DNA of 64,000 bases. It comes from an uncultured Bacilli bacterium. GTDB taxonomy: Bacteria; Bacillota_I; Bacilli_A; RF39; UBA660. Location: positions 4,755 through 68,754 of the forward strand of contig CAJTXY010000001.1 of NCBI GenBank assembly GCA_910583685.1. The letters are read 5' to 3'. The notes beneath the pieces were generated by a model. That model saw nothing but the letters and a program-made list of their open reading frames with translations. It made no database searches and was not told the DNA's origin. The number at the start of each line of letters is the position of its first letter. Within the stretch, counting starts at the first letter, position 1. The position numbers and the translations under genes are program-made. Positions 662 through 10,541 of this stretch are shown here, in pieces.

Positions 662-930
662 AAGTTTTCACTCCTTTATCTTTCTATTTACTTCCTTTTG
701 CCCTTACAAATAGCAATTAAAAAAACTATAAATTTAAGGACGGATTTCTCCGCGGTACCACCTTAATTTATAGTTATTACTATACACTTAAATCTTTTAA
801 CGCAAGAATTACGCTTACTATTAATAAGGACTCCTAAGACGAATTCATAAACTATCTTTCCTTGTTTTCACCAGCCACAAGGTCTCTTAAAAAGAATTAT
901 TTACTACTACTTCTTAATCAACATCGATAT
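662..930 (-). promoter_or_regulatory. T-box riboswitch leader upstream of pheS
   Basis: The minus strand reads AATTAAGGTGGTACCGCGG at 768..751, a near-perfect T-box consensus (AGGGUGGNACCGCG). It is followed by a short hairpin (CGGAGAAATCCG) and a T-run (TTTATAGTTTTTTT) about 60 nt before the pheS start, consistent with a terminator/antiterminator. pheS/pheT are classic T-box-regulated genes in Firmicutes. Confidence 0.6.
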
Positions 931-1582: not shown

Positions 1583-1614
1583 AAAGTAGAAAAGGAAGCT
1601 TAACTTGCTTCCTT
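1583..1614 (-). terminator. Putative intrinsic terminator overlapping the stop of the lipoprotein gene
   Basis: 8-bp stem AAGGAAGC/GCTTCCTT with a 7-nt loop. It is followed on the minus strand by TTTTCTACTTTAAAATAAAAT. Confidence 0.4.
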
Positions 1615-2145
1615 CTTTTGATATTTTTTTATTAATTCTATATATTTTTCTTGCAATTTCTTTCGTTCCTTTGCTGTAAATCCCTCTTCATTACCTTTGG
1701 TAATTTTCTCATAATCCAAGCTGTAAGAGACAATTTTCCCATCTCTTATAAAAAATAAAGCTGGTGTTTTTAAAGTCTCATCTTCTTTTAAAGCTGGTGT
1801 TATTTTCTTTATTAAATTCTTATATTTCTGAGGCTGCTTTTTTCTTGCTATCTTTAAATTAATGTAAGAAACTTTTTCTACTTTGGTCTTTTTTAGTGCT
1901 TCATTTAATACTTTCGCAGATAATCTTGACCATTCCTCATCTGGGTTTCCTAAAAAAAACATACCATTTCCCTCTGTAAAAATCGTAAGGGATTTTTCTA
2001 TTGAAATATAATGAAAAGGATTGTTTTTGCTTATGTTATACTCAATTGCAAATTTTTCGGCATCTGTTTGCTCCTCTATCTTTTGGATGGAGCAGCCTGT
2101 AATACAAAATGTCATTATTAGGAAAAGTACTGCTTTTTTCATCAC
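1600..2145 (-). CDS. Lipoprotein of unknown function, possibly a thioredoxin-like fold without a CXXC motif. It sits where pyrH normally lies between tsf and frr.
   Basis: Signal peptide plus lipobox (LIMTFCITGC|S). The C-terminal region (TPALFFIRDGKIV) resembles the thioredoxin-fold strand motif, but no catalytic cysteines are present. Confidence 0.45.
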   Translation of the reverse strand: MMKKAVLFLIMTFCITGCSIQKIEEQTDAEKFAIEYNISKNNPFHYISIEKSLTIFTEGNGMFFLGNPDEEWSRLSAKVLNEALKKTKVEKVSYINLKIARKKQPQKYKNLIKKITPALKEDETLKTPALFFIRDGKIVSYSLDYEKITKGNEEGFTAKERKKLQEKYIELIKKYQKKEAS

Positions 2146-2156
2146 TTCTCCAACAA

Positions 2157-3029
2157 TTAACCATTGATTTGATTCATCACTTCATCAGCAAAGTTTTCTT
2201 CTTTTTTCTCAATTCCTTCACCAACAGCGAAACGTGTCATAGATACGATTTCTCCGCCGTTATTCTTCACAAACTCACTAACAGTTACTGAAGTATCTTT
2301 GATAAACTCTTGTTCTTCTAAGCAAGATTCCTTATAGAATTTATTAATTCTTCCTGCAACCATTTTTTCGGCAATCTCTTCTGGTTTCCCTTCATTCATT
2401 ACTTGTTCTTTTATCACTTTCTTTTCATGCTCTAATACGTCTTCTGGCATTTCATCACGACGTGCACAAATTGGGTTCATTGCTGCAACGTGCATTGCAA
2501 CATCTTTGGCAACTTCTTCTGTTGCATTTTGTGTTACAACTAAAGTTGCAATTCTTCCTCCCATATGTAAGTATGGTCCAAATTGCTCGTTTTCTTGTTT
2601 TTGTACTTTTACAAAACGACGGAAACTGATTTTTTCTCCAATTTTTGCAGTAAGAGCCACTAATTTTTGCTCTAATGTCTCTCCAGCATCCTCTATTTTT
2701 AAAACTTCTTCTACTGTATTGGCATTGTTTTTTAAGATCAATGTTGCTAAATAATCTACAAAGTTTACAAATTCTTCATTTTTAGCTACAAAGTCTGTTT
2801 CAGAGTTTACTTCTAATACTACTGCTGTATTTTCTTCTGTTTTAATTGCACATAACCCTTCTGCTGCAATTCTTGACTCTTTTTTTGCTGCTTTGGCAAT
2901 TCCTTTTTCTCTTAACCAATCAATAGCAGCTTCCATTTGTCCTTCTGTTGCTTCCAATGCTTTTTTACAATCAAGCATTCCAGCCCCTGTTTTTTCTCTT
3001 AATTCTTTTACATCACTTGCTTTAAACAT
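2157..3029 (-). CDS. tsf: Elongation factor Ts
   Basis: The N-terminal MFKASDVKELREKTGAGMLDCKKAL is a classic EF-Ts UBA-like start. 290 aa. Confidence 0.9.
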   Translation of the reverse strand: MFKASDVKELREKTGAGMLDCKKALEATEGQMEAAIDWLREKGIAKAAKKESRIAAEGLCAIKTEENTAVVLEVNSETDFVAKNEEFVNFVDYLATLILKNNANTVEEVLKIEDAGETLEQKLVALTAKIGEKISFRRFVKVQKQENEQFGPYLHMGGRIATLVVTQNATEEVAKDVAMHVAAMNPICARRDEMPEDVLEHEKKVIKEQVMNEGKPEEIAEKMVAGRINKFYKESCLEEQEFIKDTSVTVSEFVKNNGGEIVSMTRFAVGEGIEKKEENFADEVMNQING

Positions 3030-3099
3030 AGTAATCCTCCTCTTTCATTTTCGTTTTCGTTTTATTCAAAAAAAGGGTGTATACCTACCACCCTCCTTT

Positions 3100-4035
3100 T
3101 TATCTTAATGCATCAATTAGTTCTTGCTTTTTCATTGTAGAGTATCCCTTAACTTCTTTTTCTTTTGCTATCTTTTTTAAATCTGCTAAAGTCATACTCT
3201 CTAAGTCAGTTGTTTCCTCTTTTACTTCTGCTGGTTCTTCTTTTTTTACTTCTTCTTTTGTTGTTTCTTGAGCTACTACTGCTTTTTCTTCCTTTTTTGC
3301 TTCTTTCTTAGTTGCTTTTTGTTTATCTTCTTCTGTTACATAGTCAATTACTTCATTTCCATTTACTTCGGCAATCGCATTTGTAAGAGAACCGATAATT
3401 AGTTTTACAGCACGAACCGCATCGTCATTTCCTGGAATTACATAATCTACTACATCAGGATCACAGTTTGTATCTACAATACCGAATACTGGAATTCCTA
3501 AAATATGTGCCTCTTTAATGGCGATATCTTCTTTTCTAGGATCTACAATTACTAATGCTTGAGGAAGTTTCTTCATTTCGCGAATTCCTCTTAAGTTACG
3601 ATTTAATTTTTCGTATTCTTTTTTAATTTTAATTACTTCTTTTTTAGGTAGTAAATCAAAAGTTCCGTCAGACTCCATTTTATCGATTTCATCCATTCTT
3701 CTAACACGAGAACGAATTGTTTTAAAGTTTGTTAGTGTTCCTCCTAACCATCTTTCGTTTACAAAATACATATTTGTTCTAACAGCGGCCTCTTCACAAG
3801 CTTCTTGTGCTTGTTTTTTTGTTCCAACAAATAGGAATTTACCACCATCTTCCGCAATTTTTTTCATTGCTTCATATGCTTCTTCTAGTTTTTTTACTGT
3901 TTTTTGTAAATCGATAATATAAATATCATCTCTAGTTGTATAGATGTATTCCTTCATTTTAGGATTCCATCTTCTTTTTTGGTGTCCAAAATGTACACCT
4001 GATTCTAATAAATAATTCATTGATACAATTGTCAT
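3100..4035 (-). CDS. rpsB: 30S ribosomal protein S2 with a roughly 100-aa Lys/Glu-rich C-terminal extension ending in a Rho_N-like module
   Basis: [27 protein letters not shown] is a canonical S2 N-terminus. The start is set at the ATG preceded by AAAGGAG (9-nt spacer). The track ORF begins 23 codons further upstream. The C-terminal tail reads ...[34 protein letters not shown]. Confidence 0.9.
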
Positions 4036-4125
4036 ATCTAAAATTCTCCTTTTCGTTTTTCTTCTATTAGCTTCTAATAAATGCCACCCGTAGGCACTAG
4101 GCATTTAAATTCACCAATATGTTTA

Positions 4126-4716
4126 TTATTTTAAAGCTTCAATTAATTCCGCTTTTTTCATTGTAGTTGCCCCTTTAATTCCTTGTGCTTTTGCTGCTTC
4201 TTTTAACTCGGCAACTGACATCTTGCTGTAATCAGTAGTTGTTGATTCTTTTTTTGCTGCTTTTTTGCTTTCTTTTTTATCATCCTTGATAGTCTCTTTT
4301 TTCGCACCACCTTGGATTGTTACTTCTGCTAATTGTGCAACTTCTTTTTTGCTAATTTTTCCTTCTTTTCCATCTTTTGCAATTTTTACAAATTCTGAAA
4401 ACATCTTTGGATCATTGATTGCAATTTCTGATAACATCTTACGGTTTACTTCCACACCTGCTTTTGTTAATCCTTCAATAAATCTAGAATAACTAATTCC
4501 GTTTTCACGGCATGCAGCGTTAATTCTAGTAATCCATAATTTTCTGAACTCTCTTTTCTTTTGTTTACGGTCACGATAAGCATATTGTCCTGAATGCATT
4601 AATTGTTCTTTTGCTGTTTTATATAGTCTATGCTTACTTCCAAAATAACCTTTGGCTTGTTTTAATACTTTTTTATGACGAGCTTTTGTAACTGCTCCAT
4701 TTTTTACTCTTGCCAT
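4126..4716 (-). CDS. rplT: 50S ribosomal protein L20 with a roughly 75-aa C-terminal extension ending in a Rho_N-like module
   Basis: [26 protein letters not shown]...RLYK is a canonical L20. The tail reads ...[35 protein letters not shown]. Confidence 0.9.
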
Positions 4717-4734: not shown

Positions 4735-4926
4735 TTATTTAATAATATTTTGTAAACGATTTTGATCTGCTTTACTTAAAGTAGACCCTTTTCTATTTTT
4801 ACGATTGATGGCACTTGATTTTTTACCTGTATTATGACGGCTACCTGGTCTACCAATACTGATGGTTCCACCTTTTCTCACCTTTAGAACTTTCTTTGTT
4901 CCTTTATGTGTTTTCATTTTTGGCAT
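4735..4926 (-). CDS. rpmI: 50S ribosomal protein L35
   Basis: MPKMKTHKGTKKVLKVRKGG..., 63 aa. Confidence 0.85.
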   Translation of the reverse strand: MPKMKTHKGTKKVLKVRKGGTISIGRPGSRHNTGKKSSAINRKNRKGSTLSKADQNRLQNIIK

Positions 4927-4941
4927 ACTTATTTCCTCCTA

Positions 4942-5475
4942 CTATTTTTCTTTTTTAGGCACTAATACACAAGACATTACTCTACCATCCAACTTTGGTT
5001 GCTGGTCAATATCGGCATAGTCTTTTGTTTTTTCAATAAAACGCATAATAACTTCACGACCTAATTCTGTATGAGCCATTTGTCGTCCTTTAAAGCGTAC
5101 AGTTAATTTAATGCGATCTCCTTTTTGCAAGTACTTTAGTGCATTTCTAAGCTTTGTCTCAAAATCTCCAATATCAATTGTCGGAGACAAACGATACTCT
5201 TTTAATTCAGACATATTGGCACGTTGACGTTTTAATGCCTCTTTTTCCTTTTTTTGCTTCTCATAACGATATTTGTTATAATCCATTACTTTACAAACAG
5301 GTGGCGTGGCATTCGGACTGATCAGAACTAAATCAAGAGATGCATATTGGGCTAATGTTAAGGCATCATTGATACTCTTGATACCAACTTGTTCTCCATT
5401 TGGTCCTATTACTAATACTTCTCTTGCTTTGATTTGCTCGTTAATCATCATGTTATTTTTATTGTTTGCGATAAT
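4942..5475 (-). CDS. infC: Translation initiation factor IF-3, with a probable non-canonical AUU/AUC start
   Basis: ...INEQIKAREVLVIGPNGEQVGIKSINDALTLAQYASLDLVLISPNATPPVCKVMDYNKYRYEKQKK is IF-3. The track ATG at 5487 is immediately followed by GGAGGTG (a strong SD) and then ATT (5475-5473) / ATC (5472-5470). This fits the conserved AUU-start autoregulation of infC. The 5' end is uncertain by about 15 nt. Confidence 0.8.
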   Translation of the reverse strand: MIANNKNNMMINEQIKAREVLVIGPNGEQVGIKSINDALTLAQYASLDLVLISPNATPPVCKVMDYNKYRYEKQKKEKEALKRQRANMSELKEYRLSPTIDIGDFETKLRNALKYLQKGDRIKLTVRFKGRQMAHTELGREVIMRFIEKTKDYADIDQQPKLDGRVMSCVLVPKKEK

Positions 5476-5680
5476 TAACACCTCCATAAATTAAGAAAAG
5501 TGAATACAATCATTATATCCACTTTAAAAACCAATATAAAATTTTATATTTTTTGGCTTTTAACCTACCACTATTCGCGGTCAGGTGGATATAAACATCT
5601 CTTTCCTTTTCTCGACTGTTATAAGTATATGAAAAAAACTTGAAAAAGTCAACTCTTTTTTTACTTATATAAATTTTTCT

Positions 5681-5710
5681 ATATAAAAAGTCTAAGAAAG
5701 CGTCTTAGAC
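5681..5710 (-). terminator. Leader terminator/attenuator hairpin in the infC 5' leader
   Basis: Perfect 8-bp stem GTCTAAGA/TCTTAGAC with a 5-nt loop. It is followed on the minus strand by TTTTTATATAG. It lies about 200 nt upstream of infC, as in the L20-regulated attenuator of Bacillus. Confidence 0.5.
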
Positions 5711-5840
5711 TAACGATAAAACCTGTCCTTACGTACAGGTGGGTGCCCCGTGATAAGCCTTTAGGATTCCTACGAACTGTAGGCGTTCAACACCAGCAAA
5801 TCATTCCCGGCTCCCTTATCGTCAATTTAGTCGGTTTTAT
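5711..5840 (-). promoter_or_regulatory. Structured GC-rich RNA leader, putative L20-binding leader of the infC-rpmI-rplT operon
   Basis: A GC-rich island in an AT-rich intergenic region with several nested helices (ACCTGT...ACAGGT, CCTAC...GTAGG, and long-range GATAAG...CTTATC). Position and orientation match the Firmicutes L20 leader. The primary sequence could not be matched to a covariance model by eye. Confidence 0.45.
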
Positions 5841-5972
5841 ATTAAGTCTGTTCGCATTTCTTAGACATTTTTAGTATACCATAACTATTATAAAAAATAC
5901 AATGATATTTTACAGTTTTATAAATTTACTTTCTAATGAACAGATCATTTGCTTTTACATAGATTACTATAG

Positions 5973-6740
5973 GTGATTGTTATGTATTATAAAAATAATG
6001 ATATGACTTTATACTATAGAAAATATGGTTGTGCAAAGGATGTTATTGTCATTCTACCTGGTTGGGGTGATACTAGACATACTTTTGATTTCTTGGTTTC
6101 TTATTTGGCAAAAGATTACACTGTTTACATTTTCGATTATCCTGGTTTTGGCAAAAGTACTTTCCCAGGAGAAGATCTTACTATTTATCATTATGGTATA
6201 TTCTTCCAAGATTTTCTAAAGGCTAAGAATATTAAAAATCCCATTATTATTGGCCACTCTTTTGGCGGTAGAATTGCTATTTTACTAGCAGGTCTTTACA
6301 AAGTGAATTGTAAAAAAATCATTTTGATAGATGCTGCTGGGATTAAACCTCATAAAGGTATTTTGAAACTTATTCGTCAAACTGTCTACAAAGTTCTCAA
6401 ACGTTTAAAATATCTACTTCCTAATAAGATAAGAGATCGTTATCAAAAATGGTTATTAAAAAAGTTTTCATCCGCAGATTATCAGGCCTTGCCACCACAA
6501 ATGATGAAGACATTTCGGAATATAATCCAAGAAGATTTAAAAGGGTATCTTAAAAGTGTGGAGGCAGAAGTTTTGCTAATTTGGGGGGAATATGATTGTG
6601 ATACTCCACTTTCTGATGGATGCTATATGGCAAAAAAAATTCCAGATGCTGCACTTATTTGTGTTCGCAAAGCTTCTCACTATAGCTATTTAGAACAGCC
6701 TCTTTACGTCTTGCGAATTATAAAGCAATTTATAAAATAA
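5973..6740 (+). CDS. Alpha/beta-hydrolase fold protein (esterase/lipase-like)
   Basis: Nucleophile-elbow motif GHSFGG and an alpha/beta-hydrolase-like length and layout. The start may be the internal Met (MTLYYRKYG). Confidence 0.6.
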   Translation: MIVMYYKNNDMTLYYRKYGCAKDVIVILPGWGDTRHTFDFLVSYLAKDYTVYIFDYPGFGKSTFPGEDLTIYHYGIFFQDFLKAKNIKNPIIIGHSFGGRIAILLAGLYKVNCKKIILIDAAGIKPHKGILKLIRQTVYKVLKRLKYLLPNKIRDRYQKWLLKKFSSADYQALPPQMMKTFRNIIQEDLKGYLKSVEAEVLLIWGEYDCDTPLSDGCYMAKKIPDAALICVRKASHYSYLEQPLYVLRIIKQFIK

Positions 6741-9215: not shown

Positions 9216-10541
9216 TTAATTTAGTTGATAAACGTCAAAATATAGGACCTTATCGACCCTTTTTCCGTTTTTTATTATGTATTTTAAGACCTCTTTGTCA
9301 GTTTGAGTTGAATAGTTTAATTCTTCTTTATTGATCAAAAATAATGTGCTTTTTTTCTTTTGAATTGCTTTTATCATTTTTTTAGTTCCGTCTTTTCCCC
9401 AATTCCCCCTATTGATTAAATCTAGTTTTTCAATTCTACGATGATTACTTAATTTAAAAATATAAGATGTACTAGATAAAATTATAATGTCCTCTTCCAA
9501 ATGATTGTCACTATATTCTTTTAGTGTTTCTGCATTATGGTATTCCATAGGATTTAAATAACGGTATTCATAATTTCTAATATGATTAGGGTAGACTCCT
9601 TTCGCATTTAAGGTTACCAGCATATTTCCTATTGGAAACAAGATGATCAGCCATAAGAAAAATTTTTCTAAGTGGTAATTAAACAAAAAATCACTATGTG
9701 CTATTATTGCCGTTAGTATTATAAATAATCCCAATAAAAAGTGTAATAAATCGAAGAGTGGAAAACATATAAAATAAAAGGCCACTGCGTAAATCCACTC
9801 TGTTTCATATTTTTGTTTTCTAAAATAAAATAGGAAGGCAATCCAAATTACAATTATAGAAATAGGCCTCCATATTGCTACTGATTCTCCATTTTTGGAA
9901 AACTCAAACATTCCTAAAAAACATTGATCTATGAAATCATTGAAATTTCCTGCTAATAAAAGATATGTAAAAATAAAGAACGTGGGAATTGCTACTCCTA
10001 AACATCTTTTCTTCAATCTTTCTTTATCATTCTTTACAAGATAGCATCCGCATAATAGGATCAAAAAACCAATCGATTGTTTTGTAAATAAAATGAGGCC
10101 TAACAGGAGGCCAATTTCTAGGTCTTTGGCCTTCCTTTTTTCTGCATAAATTAAAGCTAAAACGATGCAACAACAGAGCGTATTGTAAGTTGGCAGTCCA
10201 TTGACTATTGGTAATAATATAAGTAAAAAAATAAGAATTACCGATTTTTCTTTTGTTAACTTTTCTAATAAATAACAAATTACCACCATCAGCAGTGCTT
10301 GCTCAATATGAAACATTAAAATGCCCTTATAAAAGAAAAGTCCTATTGAAAATAGGAATGAAAATACAGGTGGTACAATCATATTAAAGTCTTGGTAAGG
10401 AACGAGTCCACTTGCAATATTATAGGAAAAGCCATAACTCCACGTTTCGTCTGCTGATACTTTTCTTAAAAACAAGTAAGAAATTAAAAAGGAAAAAAAG
10501 AAAAAGATATATTTGGTTTTACTTAAAATTTTGTCTCTCAT
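9216..10541 (-). CDS. Polytopic (about 10-12 TM) membrane protein with a roughly 110-aa C-terminal soluble domain. It is embedded in the dcw operon between divIB and ftsA. Function unknown; possibly a GT-C-like glycosyltransferase or O-antigen-ligase-like protein.
   Basis: Hydrophobic segments span the first ~330 aa. It is tightly packed (4-nt gap to divIB, 37-nt gap to ftsA) and co-oriented with the dcw genes. Confidence 0.45.
   Translation of the reverse strand: MRDKILSKTKYIFFFFSFLISYLFLRKVSADETWSYGFSYNIASGLVPYQDFNMIVPPVFSFLFSIGLFFYKGILMFHIEQALLMVVICYLLEKLTKEKSVILIFLLILLPIVNGLPTYNTLCCCIVLALIYAEKRKAKDLEIGLLLGLILFTKQSIGFLILLCGCYLVKNDKERLKKRCLGVAIPTFFIFTYLLLAGNFNDFIDQCFLGMFEFSKNGESVAIWRPISIIVIWIAFLFYFRKQKYETEWIYAVAFYFICFPLFDLLHFLLGLFIILTAIIAHSDFLFNYHLEKFFLWLIILFPIGNMLVTLNAKGVYPNHIRNYEYRYLNPMEYHNAETLKEYSDNHLEEDIIILSSTSYIFKLSNHRRIEKLDLINRGNWGKDGTKKMIKAIQKKKSTLFLINKEELNYSTQTDKEVLKYIIKNGKRVDKVLYFDVYQLN

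What the first reader, a model, noticed from the sequence alone, without database searches (positions are those of the whole stretch)
3100..4716. Duplicated Rho_N-like C-terminal modules appended to both ribosomal protein S2 and L20
S2 ends ...[35 protein letters not shown]20 ends ...[34 protein letters not shown]. The shared pattern (M[TS][LV]A[DE]LK..AK....KG..TMKK.ELI.AL[RK]) resembles the Rho N-terminal/HeH nucleic-acid-binding motif (E. coli Rho: LTELK...LENLARMRKQDIIFAILK). In each protein it is preceded by a Lys/Glu/Ala-rich linker. The same small module grafted onto two unrelated r-proteins, one from each subunit, suggests a lineage-specific ribosome decoration or a moonlighting tether.
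Basis: partly seen in the sequence, partly recalled or inferred. Interest (0 to 1): 0.55.

Follow-up and report, generated by a model that had tools for sequence, protein, structure and literature searches.

The report
Rho_N-type tails on ribosomal S2 and L20
In this uncultured gut bacterium two ribosomal proteins, one from each subunit, each end in a floppy linker carrying the same small nucleic-acid-binding type of domain; the feature is real, conserved across the lineage and under selection, but the domain fusion is already in databases and its function is untested.

Summary
rpsB (3100-4035, minus strand) and rplT (4126-4716, minus strand) each encode a normal core, a low-complexity K/E-rich linker of about 40 residues, and a 36-residue C-terminal module. 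Both modules score above Pfam's cut-off for Rho_N. An AlphaFold model gives a helix-extended loop-helix that fits the E. coli Rho N-terminus best.

There is no frameshift. All of the top 120 homologue clusters listed for each protein carry the module, as do 72 of 80 related species for L20 and 37 of 37 complete adjacent S2 genes. Module dN/dS is about 0.22.

New here:
- The two tails evolve in concert by repeated gene conversion. Within-genome dS falls to 0.09-0.20, against 0.90 in this window.
- Eight species have an L20 tail with no module and a strongly basic K/A/T-rich tail instead.
- Marine Flavobacteriaceae carry the same module on bL21, which I recall is the ribosomal neighbour of bL20.

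My best reading is flexible, non-specific nucleic-acid-binding arms on both solvent faces of the ribosome. RNA is favoured because the plant RHON1 Rho-N motif binds RNA.

The architecture is already annotated (Pfam; NCBIfam "L20/unknown domain fusion"). I found no paper on it. Moderate interest.

The parts
3100..4035 (-). rpsB, ribosomal protein uS2 with C-terminal extension (311 aa plus stop); the listed ORF start at 4104 is an upstream over-extension
   Evidence: Pfam Ribosomal_S2 1.2e-99 and TIGR01011 338 bits; RBS AAAGGAG before the ATG at 4035
3331..4035 (-). uS2 core (aa 1-235)
   Evidence: Pfam PF00318 covers aa 9-223 in 311-aa numbering
3211..3330 (-). uS2 linker (aa 236-275), K/E-rich polyampholyte with net charge -2; length and sequence vary among orthologues (median 43 aa; upper range 60; some computed lengths were 0)
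3103..3210 (-). uS2 C-terminal Rho_N-type helix-extension-helix module (aa 276-311: [36 protein letters not shown])
   Evidence: PF07498 44.6 bits (51.1 when scanned alone); AF2 pLDDT 87.4 with H10-19, loop, H30-37; best structural matches are the E. coli Rho N-terminus at TM 0.80-0.84
4126..4716 (-). rplT, ribosomal protein bL20 with C-terminal extension (196 aa plus stop)
   Evidence: Pfam Ribosomal_L20 7e-49; TIGR01032 169.7 bits; NCBIfam PRK14537 'L20/unknown domain fusion' 185.5 bits against a cut-off of 187
4363..4716 (-). bL20 core (aa 1-118)
4237..4362 (-). bL20 conserved stub (DGKxGK..EV..EVT, about aa 115-134) followed by a variable K/E/T-rich linker; aa 135-159 are predicted disordered
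   Evidence: alignment A3; AF2 of full-length L20 gives pLDDT 33-47 for aa 135-159
4129..4236 (-). bL20 C-terminal Rho_N/SAP-type module (aa 161-196: [36 protein letters not shown])
   Evidence: PF07498 32.9 bits and PF02037 28.7 bits; AF2 helices 168-177 and 188-195 with pLDDT 75-80
4036..4125 (-). 90-nt rplT-rpsB spacer with no T-run terminator, so the two module-bearing genes are direct neighbours and probably co-transcribed
4735..5609 (-). operon context: sub-threshold L20 leader (5486-5609), infC (4942-5487), rpmI (4735-4926)

Best explanation
uS2 and bL20 of this uncultured gut Bacilli lineage are genuine extended ribosomal proteins. Each consists of a normal core, a disordered K/E-rich linker of about 40 residues, and a 36-residue helix-extension-helix module of the Rho_N/SAP class at the extreme C-terminus. 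The two modules are paralogues. Repeated gene conversion between the neighbouring rplT and rpsB genes keeps them similar, and purifying selection maintains them. The following is inferred, not shown. The modules hang from the solvent faces of the 30S and 50S subunits as flexible arms. They bind nucleic-acid backbone non-specifically through the conserved basic patch (AK at the end of helix 1, MKK at the start of helix 2). RNA, whether mRNA or nascent or neighbouring rRNA, is the favoured ligand. The effect would be to hold RNA near the ribosome or near assembling subunits, rather than to make one fixed contact.
For: SHOWN. Rho_N is above Pfam's cut-off on both tails. AF2 gives a confident helix-loop-helix whose best PDB fits are the Rho N-terminus, then the FAN1 and Tho1 SAP domains. 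The profile hits the Ku70 SAP domain and Rho in PDB sequences. The linker is predicted disordered while the module is folded. Conservation is lineage-wide. Module dN/dS is 0.21-0.23. The module always sits 0-1 residue from the C-terminus. There is concerted evolution: same-genome L20 and S2 modules reach 95-96% nt identity with dS 0.09-0.20. A one-residue loop deletion is shared by both proteins in 9 genomes but is found on L20 only in 6 others. These states are scattered over the core-protein tree. I take this to mean the two copies are interchangeable, which argues for a common, generic ligand.

SUPPORT FOR A POLYANION LIGAND. In 8 species the L20 tail lacks the module. These species do not group together by L20-core identity. 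In each the tail is strongly basic and K/A/T-rich, with net charge +10 to +16, against a mean of +3.3 for the linkers of module-bearing L20.

SUPPORT FOR A RIBOSOME-SURFACE ROLE. The same module sits on a similar linker on bL21 in marine Flavobacteriaceae. From my own knowledge, bL21 is the direct neighbour of bL20 on the 50S subunit.

PRECEDENT FOR RNA. The isolated 40-residue C-terminal Rho-N motif of Arabidopsis RHON1 also follows a highly charged stretch. It shifts 16S and 23S rRNA fragments in gel-shift assays, and RHON1 associates with rRNA in vivo (PMC3458557).
Against: There is no direct evidence that the tails are present on mature ribosomes, and none that they bind anything. No solved ribosome chain contains the module. 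The L20 tail passes the SAP threshold, and the best PDB sequence hit is the Ku70 SAP domain, which is classically a DNA binder, so DNA cannot be ranked far below RNA. The Foldseek E-values are not significant (above 1) because the domain is tiny. The window's S2 linker is net acidic (-2), which does not help polyanion binding. Gene conversion between adjacent similar sequences can be neutral, so it does not prove a shared function. The positions of the uS2 and bL20 C-termini on the ribosome are taken from general knowledge and were not computed here.
Confidence: 0.5

Rival explanations
1. The modules act as SAP-like double-stranded-DNA binders that tether ribosomes or free subunits to the nucleoid, for example to keep translation close to transcription in a small cell.
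For: The L20 tail passes the Pfam SAP cut-off (28.7 against 23.9). The best PDB sequence hit of the module profile is the Ku70 SAP domain (E = 8.5e-7). FAN1 and Tho1 SAP domains are among the best structural matches. The module-less L20 tails resemble histone-H1-like K/A/T repeats.
Against: The S2 tail is below the SAP cut-off (15.6 in the whole protein, 23.6 alone). Rho_N scores higher than SAP on both tails. The one isolated Rho-N motif that has been tested binds RNA (PMC3458557). The context is an RNA machine.
Confidence: 0.2
2. The modules are protein-protein docking units. They could recruit a common partner (RNA polymerase or Nus factors, an RNase or helicase, or a membrane protein bearing the same module), or pair with each other to link ribosomes in polysome or hibernation arrays.
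For: The two copies are kept interchangeable by conversion. A thioredoxin-like membrane protein in a related gut contig carries the same module on a cytoplasmic acidic linker (L103). RHON1 dimerises and binds RNase E (PMC3458557).
Against: No partner has been identified. Replacement of the module by plain basic tails fits a charge-based ligand better than a specific protein interface. The RHON1 dimerisation and RNase E contacts reported in the passages read concern the whole protein, not the Rho-N motif.
Confidence: 0.15
3. The tails act in cis. They would stabilise their own ribosome or guide assembly (bL20 is an early 50S assembly protein) by stapling a nearby rRNA element, as many lineage-specific r-protein extensions do.
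For: bL20 and bL21 both carry the module in different phyla, and I recall that they neighbour each other on the 50S subunit. RHON1 Rho-N binds 23S rRNA fragments. A conserved stub follows the L20 core.
Against: A 40-residue disordered linker that varies in length is not what a fixed staple needs. The free exchange of the module between uS2 and bL20, which sit on different subunits, argues against a site-specific rRNA contact.
Confidence: 0.12
4. Artefact or neutral baggage: the extension arises from a frameshift, read-through or mis-assembly, or it is a tolerated but functionless appendage.
For: Several metagenomic proteins containing the module are clearly assembly chimeras (P0001, P0011, P0121, P0125). 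One genome has an in-frame stop before the L20 module (L033).
Against: The frames are continuous in the window. Hundreds of independent clusters and assemblies share the architecture. dN/dS is about 0.22. The module is conserved while the linker drifts.
Confidence: 0.03

Closest known systems
N-terminal helical subdomain of transcription terminator Rho (Pfam Rho_N, PF07498)
   Same: Same Pfam family above threshold. Same helix-extended loop-helix shape, with rmsd of about 1.0-1.2 A over 36 residues to E. coli Rho. Same G.GY..M[KR]K..L signature.
   Different: The module is at the C-terminus rather than the N-terminus. It is not followed by Rho's OB-fold RNA-binding domain or ATPase. It is attached to ribosomal proteins through a disordered linker. 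These proteins are not Rho.
SAP domains (Ku70, FAN1, Tho1; PF02037) and HeH/LEM (PF12949)
   Same: Same fold class and size. The L20 tail passes the SAP cut-off. Ku70 SAP is the best PDB sequence hit.
   Different: The S2 tail is below the SAP cut-off, and both tails are below the HeH/LEM cut-off. SAP domains are mostly eukaryotic DNA binders.
Arabidopsis RHON1 C-terminal Rho-N motif (PMC3458557)
   Same: A Rho-N motif of about 40 residues at the extreme C-terminus, after a highly charged stretch. It has been shown to bind rRNA fragments on its own.
   Different: The host is a plant chloroplast RNase E partner, not a ribosomal protein. Homology beyond shared membership of the Rho_N family was not examined.
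NCBIfam NF011109 / PRK14537 '50S ribosomal protein L20/unknown domain fusion protein'
   Same: Same architecture. Profile positions 188-224 of 232 align with the module of both tails.
   Different: The window's L20 scores 185.5 against a cut-off of 187, so it narrowly misses. The model calls the domain 'unknown'. There is no equivalent model for the S2 fusion.
bL21 with K/A-rich tail in Flavobacterium johnsoniae (PDB 7jil_R) and bL21 plus Rho_N in marine Flavobacteriaceae
   Same: A basic or charged tail, with or without the same module, on another large-subunit ribosomal protein. This parallels the L20 variants with and without the module seen here.
   Different: Different phylum and different host protein. 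The F. johnsoniae tail has no module.
NCBIfam 'sunset domain variant' models for S2 (NF051451) and L20 (NF051450)
   Same: The same two ribosomal proteins are singled out as carrying a shared C-terminal domain in some lineage (model names only).
   Different: Scores are far below the cut-offs (290 against 710, and 144 against 375), and the module does not match these models. I found no paper that describes the sunset domain.

Membership tests
Pfam Rho_N (PF07498) | Score at or above the gathering threshold (24.9 bits) | tested here: met
   S2 scores 44.6 bits and L20 32.9 bits in the whole proteins; the isolated tails score 51.1 and 36.8 bits
Pfam Rho_N (PF07498) | Helix-extended loop-helix fold like residues 1-45 of Rho | tested here: met
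   AF2 pLDDT 87.4 with H10-19, loop 20-29 and H30-37. The top Foldseek PDB hits are E. coli Rho (TMq 0.80-0.84, rmsd 1.0-1.2 A). The E-values are above 1 because the domain has only 38 residues.
Transcription termination factor Rho (TIGR00767) | Rho_N followed by a cold-shock-like RNA-binding domain and a RecA-type ATPase | tested here: not met
   Only positions 3-38 of the Rho models match, at 15-23 bits against cut-offs of 315 and 509. The rest of each protein is S2 or L20.
Pfam SAP (PF02037) | Score at or above 23.9 bits | tested here: inconclusive
   L20 tail 28.7 (met). S2 tail 15.6 in the whole protein and 23.6 alone (just below).
Pfam HeH/LEM (PF12949) | Score at or above 28.9 bits | tested here: not met
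   15.0-20.3 bits for both tails
NCBIfam PRK14537 L20/unknown-domain fusion | Whole-protein score at or above 187 | tested here: not met
   185.5 bits, which narrowly misses. The architecture and the module alignment agree.
NCBIfam S2 / L20 'sunset domain variants' | Whole-protein score at or above 710 (S2) or 375 (L20) | tested here: not met
   290.5 and 144.5 bits; the alignments stop before the module
Bacterial uS2 (TIGR01011) and bL20 (TIGR01032) | Equivalog score above the cut-off | tested here: met
   338.3 against 76.3, and 169.7 against 65.65
RHON1-like C-terminal Rho-N RNA-binding appendage | Binds RNA as an isolated motif of about 40 residues | not testable with these tools
   Only the architecture (charged stretch followed by a terminal Rho-N motif) could be compared
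Ribosome-incorporated extension | The extended protein is present in mature 70S ribosomes | not testable with these tools
   No solved ribosome chain carries the module, and no proteomic data were available

The most novel reading that the evidence does not exclude
The paired arms on the 30S (uS2) and 50S (bL20, or bL21 in Flavobacteriaceae) solvent faces form a dedicated ribosome-organising system. Interchangeable HeH modules would bind a common polymer or each other to string ribosomes together, tether them to nascent transcripts or the nucleoid, or tether them to membrane proteins carrying the same module (as in L103). This would be a bacterial counterpart of eukaryotic SAP/HeH scaffolding, and it would have evolved convergently in two phyla.
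Probability: 0.12. Interest if true: 0.75.

Novelty: new member of a known kind. Interest (0 to 1): 0.45.

Why it matters
Bacterial ribosomal-protein extensions are increasingly seen as lineage-specific functional add-ons. Here a recognisable nucleic-acid-binding fold sits on long flexible linkers on both subunits. It occurs in a widespread uncultured gut lineage and, convergently, on a 50S protein (bL21) in marine Flavobacteriaceae. If the arms bind RNA or DNA in trans, they would be a simple, previously unstudied way of coupling ribosomes to transcripts, to the nucleoid or to each other. The concerted evolution of the two tails is also a clean natural example of gene conversion between parts of two essential, otherwise unrelated genes. 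If the tails turn out to be inert, the finding is only an annotation detail.

Tried and rejected
- Frameshift or read-through origin: rejected. The frames are continuous and the architecture is conserved in hundreds of clusters.
- Further copies in the window: none found in six frames.
- Rho or rRNA genes in the window for context: none. Two ORFs of Rho-like length (441 and 425 aa) were scanned; one has no Pfam hit and one is a histidine kinase. Rfam finds no rRNA.
- Literature: eight of the nine searches used targeted this (Rho_N, PF07498, HeH, SAP or 'sunset domain' combined with ribosomal proteins). None found a paper on these fusions. The F. johnsoniae ribosome paper does not discuss the bL21 tail.
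- 'Sunset domain' equals this module: rejected.
- Apparent loss of the L20 module in L074 and L033: not real losses. L074 is a contig end, and L033 has an in-frame stop with the module intact downstream.
- Long or odd homologues P0001, P0011, P0121 and P0125: assembly chimeras with internal duplications, so ignored.
- 'L20' matches to the multi-module proteins P0254 and P0255: spurious low-complexity hits.
- The representative-library search: its top hits are mostly tandem multi-copy proteins and metagenome fragments, so it gave the family size (8,922 clusters at E <= 0.001) but no clean census of host proteins.
- Homology between window ORF 1600-2145 and the module-bearing thioredoxin-like protein of L103: none.
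- Foldseek significance: the E-values are all above 1, so the fold match is supporting evidence only.

Full report
1. WHAT IS THERE

The minus strand of the window carries infC (4942-5487), rpmI (4735-4926), rplT (4126-4716), rpsB, tsf (2157-3029) and, further on, frr. The exact L20 protein is on record on MAG contig CATLHO010000001.1 of assembly GCA_949948905.1, with the same gene order.

The listed rpsB ORF starts at 4104. The ATG at 4035 has AAAGGAG 8 nt upstream and gives the canonical N-terminus [19 protein letters not shown], so the gene is 3100-4035 and the protein has 311 aa.

The window also encodes FtsZ, FtsA, SepF, DivIVA and MraY, so the organism is walled.

2. IS THE RESEMBLANCE REAL?

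- The two tails align at 54% identity over 37 residues, E = 2e-11.
- Pfam Rho_N is above its gathering score on both: S2 44.6 bits and L20 32.9 bits, against a cut-off of 24.9.
- SAP is passed by the L20 tail only, and HeH/LEM by neither.
- A profile of 14 diverse tails (A2) hits the Ku70 SAP domain and three Rho proteins in PDB sequences, and no ribosomal chain.
- AlphaFold2 on that alignment gives pLDDT 87.4, with helix 10-19, an extended loop 20-29, and helix 30-37.
- The best Foldseek matches in the PDB are the E. coli Rho N-terminus (TM 0.80-0.84, rmsd about 1.0-1.2 A over 36 residues), followed by the FAN1 and Tho1 SAP domains. The E-values are above 1 because the query has 38 residues.
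- Full-length L20 models as a folded core, a low-confidence stretch at residues 135-159 (pLDDT 33-47), and a separately folded terminal module (pLDDT 75-80).
- Only these two copies exist in the 64 kb window.

3. CONSERVATION

- All top 120 clusters homologous to L20 and all top 120 homologous to S2 carry PF07498 in their precomputed annotation. The module always ends 0-1 residue before the stop.
- A scan of species-representative genomes returned 80 loci. All are uncultured gut 'Bacilli', 'Tenericutes' or 'Erysipelotrichaceae'-labelled MAGs, including Clostridium sp. CAG:433 and Candidatus Ventrenecus. The longest contigs are about 1.2 Mb, including one 1.26 Mb record labelled 'circ' and 'chromosome: 1'.
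- Seventy L20 genes hit a simple two-sequence profile. Two more carry the module behind a contig end (L074) or an in-frame stop (L033). Eight have no module in any frame.
- rpsB is adjacent to rplT in 38 loci. All 37 complete copies carry the module.
- In the L20 alignment the core and the module are conserved, while the linker between them varies in sequence and length. S2 linkers have a median of 43 residues and L20 linkers 38.5.
- For eight independent species pairs, module dN/dS is 0.21 (L20) and 0.23 (S2).
- The tails are therefore translated and under purifying selection, and they are not an artefact.

4. CONCERTED EVOLUTION (NEW)

- In many genomes the L20 and S2 modules resemble each other more than either resembles its orthologues. 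In 18 of 64 comparisons the same-genome paralogue is at least as close as any orthologue among 32 genomes.
- Nucleotide identity within a genome reaches 90-92% over local alignments of 124-175 nt that run into the linker, and 95-96% over the module codons alone.
- Synonymous divergence between the two modules is 0.09 in L031 and 0.20 in L001. It is 0.90 in the window and up to 2.2 elsewhere.
- A one-residue deletion in the loop is present in both proteins in nine genomes, in L20 only in six, and in neither in the rest.
- On a neighbour-joining tree of the concatenated cores, these states and the high-identity pairs are scattered.
- Low dS rules out convergence at the protein level. The pattern indicates repeated gene conversion between the 3' ends of two adjacent genes. 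At least some transfers went from L20 to S2; L020, for example, sits among genomes where only L20 has the short loop.
- The window's own pair has not been homogenised recently (53% aa identity, about 66-68% nt identity).
- Several odd metagenomic 'proteins' carry internal duplications that look like assembly chimeras. I suspect, but did not test, that the repeated module promotes them.

5. CLUES TO FUNCTION

(a) Basic tails in place of the module. The eight module-less L20 tails do not form one group by L20-core identity. Their nearest neighbours at 92-97% core identity have the module. All eight are strongly basic K/A/T-rich repeats with net charge +10 to +16, against a mean of +3.3 for the linkers of module-bearing L20. 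A module that can be replaced by a plain polycation probably works on a polyanion.

(b) Other host proteins. A metagenome scan with the module profile returned 90 module-bearing ORFs: 51 S2, 32 L20 and 7 others.
- Two of the seven are fragments: L127 is an L20 fragment and L129 is probably an S2 fragment.
- Four are bL21 with a K/A-rich linker and the same module (Pfam-confirmed).
- This bL21 plus Rho_N architecture is annotated in 119 of the top 120 clusters. The few that carry names are labelled Flavobacteriaceae MAGs or come from Tara samples.
- The solved F. johnsoniae bL21 (7jil_R, 147 aa) has the K/A tail without the module.
- From my own knowledge, not computed here, bL21 is the immediate neighbour of bL20 on the back of the 50S subunit. 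On that basis two phyla have placed the same module on the same patch of the ribosome through different proteins.

(c) A non-ribosomal host. One gut contig encodes a thioredoxin-like membrane protein whose cytoplasmic acidic tail ends in the module (L103).

(d) Experimental precedent. In Arabidopsis RHON1, a Rho-N motif of 40 residues sits at the extreme C-terminus after a highly negatively charged stretch. On its own it shifts 16S and 23S rRNA fragments, and RHON1 co-purifies with rRNA (PMC3458557).

(e) Family size. The module family is very large, with 8,922 representative clusters at E <= 0.001. Members are often tandemly repeated with charged spacers. That looks like a generic binding unit.

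6. MECHANISM

Shown: the architecture, fold class, conservation, selection, interchangeability and convergence.

Inferred:
- From established ribosome structure, the uS2 C-terminus lies on the 30S solvent side near the bS1 and mRNA-exit region. The bL20 C-terminal domain lies on the 50S solvent side next to bL21.
- A 40-residue disordered linker would let each module sweep several nanometres, and up to about 14 nm if fully extended.
- I propose that the modules bind nucleic-acid backbone non-specifically through the invariant AK and MKK lysines. RNA is the more likely ligand given RHON1 and the setting.
- The arms would act in trans, on mRNA, nascent rRNA or neighbouring ribosomes, rather than as fixed staples.
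- I give this reading about 0.5.

Rivals: a SAP-like DNA or nucleoid tether (0.2), a protein-docking or homotypic linker (0.15), a cis rRNA staple or assembly aid (0.12), and artefact or inert baggage (0.03).

7. COMPARISON WITH WHAT IS KNOWN, AND NOVELTY

These proteins are bona fide uS2 and bL20 (TIGR01011 and TIGR01032 are met). Their tails are members of Pfam Rho_N. They are not Rho, and they fail the HeH/LEM cut-off.

NCBIfam already has a model named 'L20/unknown domain fusion protein' (PRK14537). Its C-terminal positions 188-224 align with this module, and the window's L20 misses its cut-off by 1.5 bits. NCBIfam also names 'sunset domain variants' of exactly S2 and L20. These are not met here, and I found no paper that describes them.

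The fusion is therefore visible in databases, but eight targeted literature searches found no study of it. I class it as a new member of known kinds: lineage-specific r-protein extensions, and Rho_N/SAP-type appendages.

What this analysis adds:
- identification of the 'unknown domain';
- the S2 partner;
- the gene-conversion dynamics;
- basic tails in place of the module in eight species;
- the convergent bL21 case.

8. VERDICT

The function is open. Interest is moderate (0.45): a ribosome specialist would find the paired, interchangeable arms and the bL20/bL21 convergence noteworthy and easy to test, but nothing here overturns current understanding.

Noticed in passing
window 5685-5870 (-): 6S RNA (RF00013, 51.7 bits, above the gathering score) lies immediately upstream of the infC-rpmI-rplT operon leader.
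   Followed up: no
window 5486-5609 (-): A sub-threshold match to the L20 leader (RF00558, 31.8 bits against 58.7, E = 0.003) sits directly upstream of infC. This suggests that L20 autoregulation is retained in divergent form.
   Followed up: no
window 733-930 (-): T-box leader (RF00230, 127.6 bits) downstream of frr.
   Followed up: no
window 3068-3094 (-) and 4036-4125 (-): A terminator-like hairpin (AGGGTG, 9-nt loop, CACCCT, then a T-run) lies between rpsB and tsf. The tool missed it because the loop exceeds 8 nt. The 90-nt rplT-rpsB spacer has no T-run terminator. rplT and rpsB are adjacent here and in 38 of 80 related genomes.
   Followed up: partly
window 1600-2145 (-) and 9216-10541 (-): Two ORFs have no Pfam match. 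One is a lipoprotein-like 181-aa protein between tsf and frr, where I would have expected pyrH (from memory). The other is a 441-aa protein next to ftsA.
   Followed up: partly
L145:3602-4105, L155:3560-4114 (also L157, L158): Ribosomal protein bL21 carries a K/A-rich linker and the same Rho_N-type module. The architecture is annotated in 119 of the top 120 clusters, some labelled Flavobacteriaceae MAGs. F. johnsoniae bL21 in PDB 7jil has the basic tail only.
   Followed up: partly
L103:335-1204: A thioredoxin-like (CxxC) membrane protein from a gut metagenome contig has a cytoplasmic acidic linker that ends in the same module.
   Followed up: partly
L035, L048, L049, L051, L057, L073, L076, L079 (L20 genes at about 6000-6600): These L20 orthologues lack the module and instead carry strongly basic K/A/T-rich tails of 58-89 residues (net charge +10 to +16). 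They do not group together by L20-core identity. S2 in the same genomes, where adjacent, keeps the module.
   Followed up: yes
L033:5992-6540: An in-frame stop codon lies between the L20 linker and an intact module. It could be a sequencing error, a nonsense mutation or read-through.
   Followed up: partly
proteins P0001, P0011, P0121, P0125, P0382 and others: These metagenomic gene products carry internal duplications or foreign N-termini joined to the module. They look like assembly chimeras; a link to the repeated tail sequence was not tested.
   Followed up: partly
NCBIfam NF051451 / NF051450: Curated models exist for 'sunset domain variants' of exactly S2 and L20, so another lineage may also share a C-terminal domain between these two proteins. 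They are not met here, and I found no paper describing them.
   Followed up: partly
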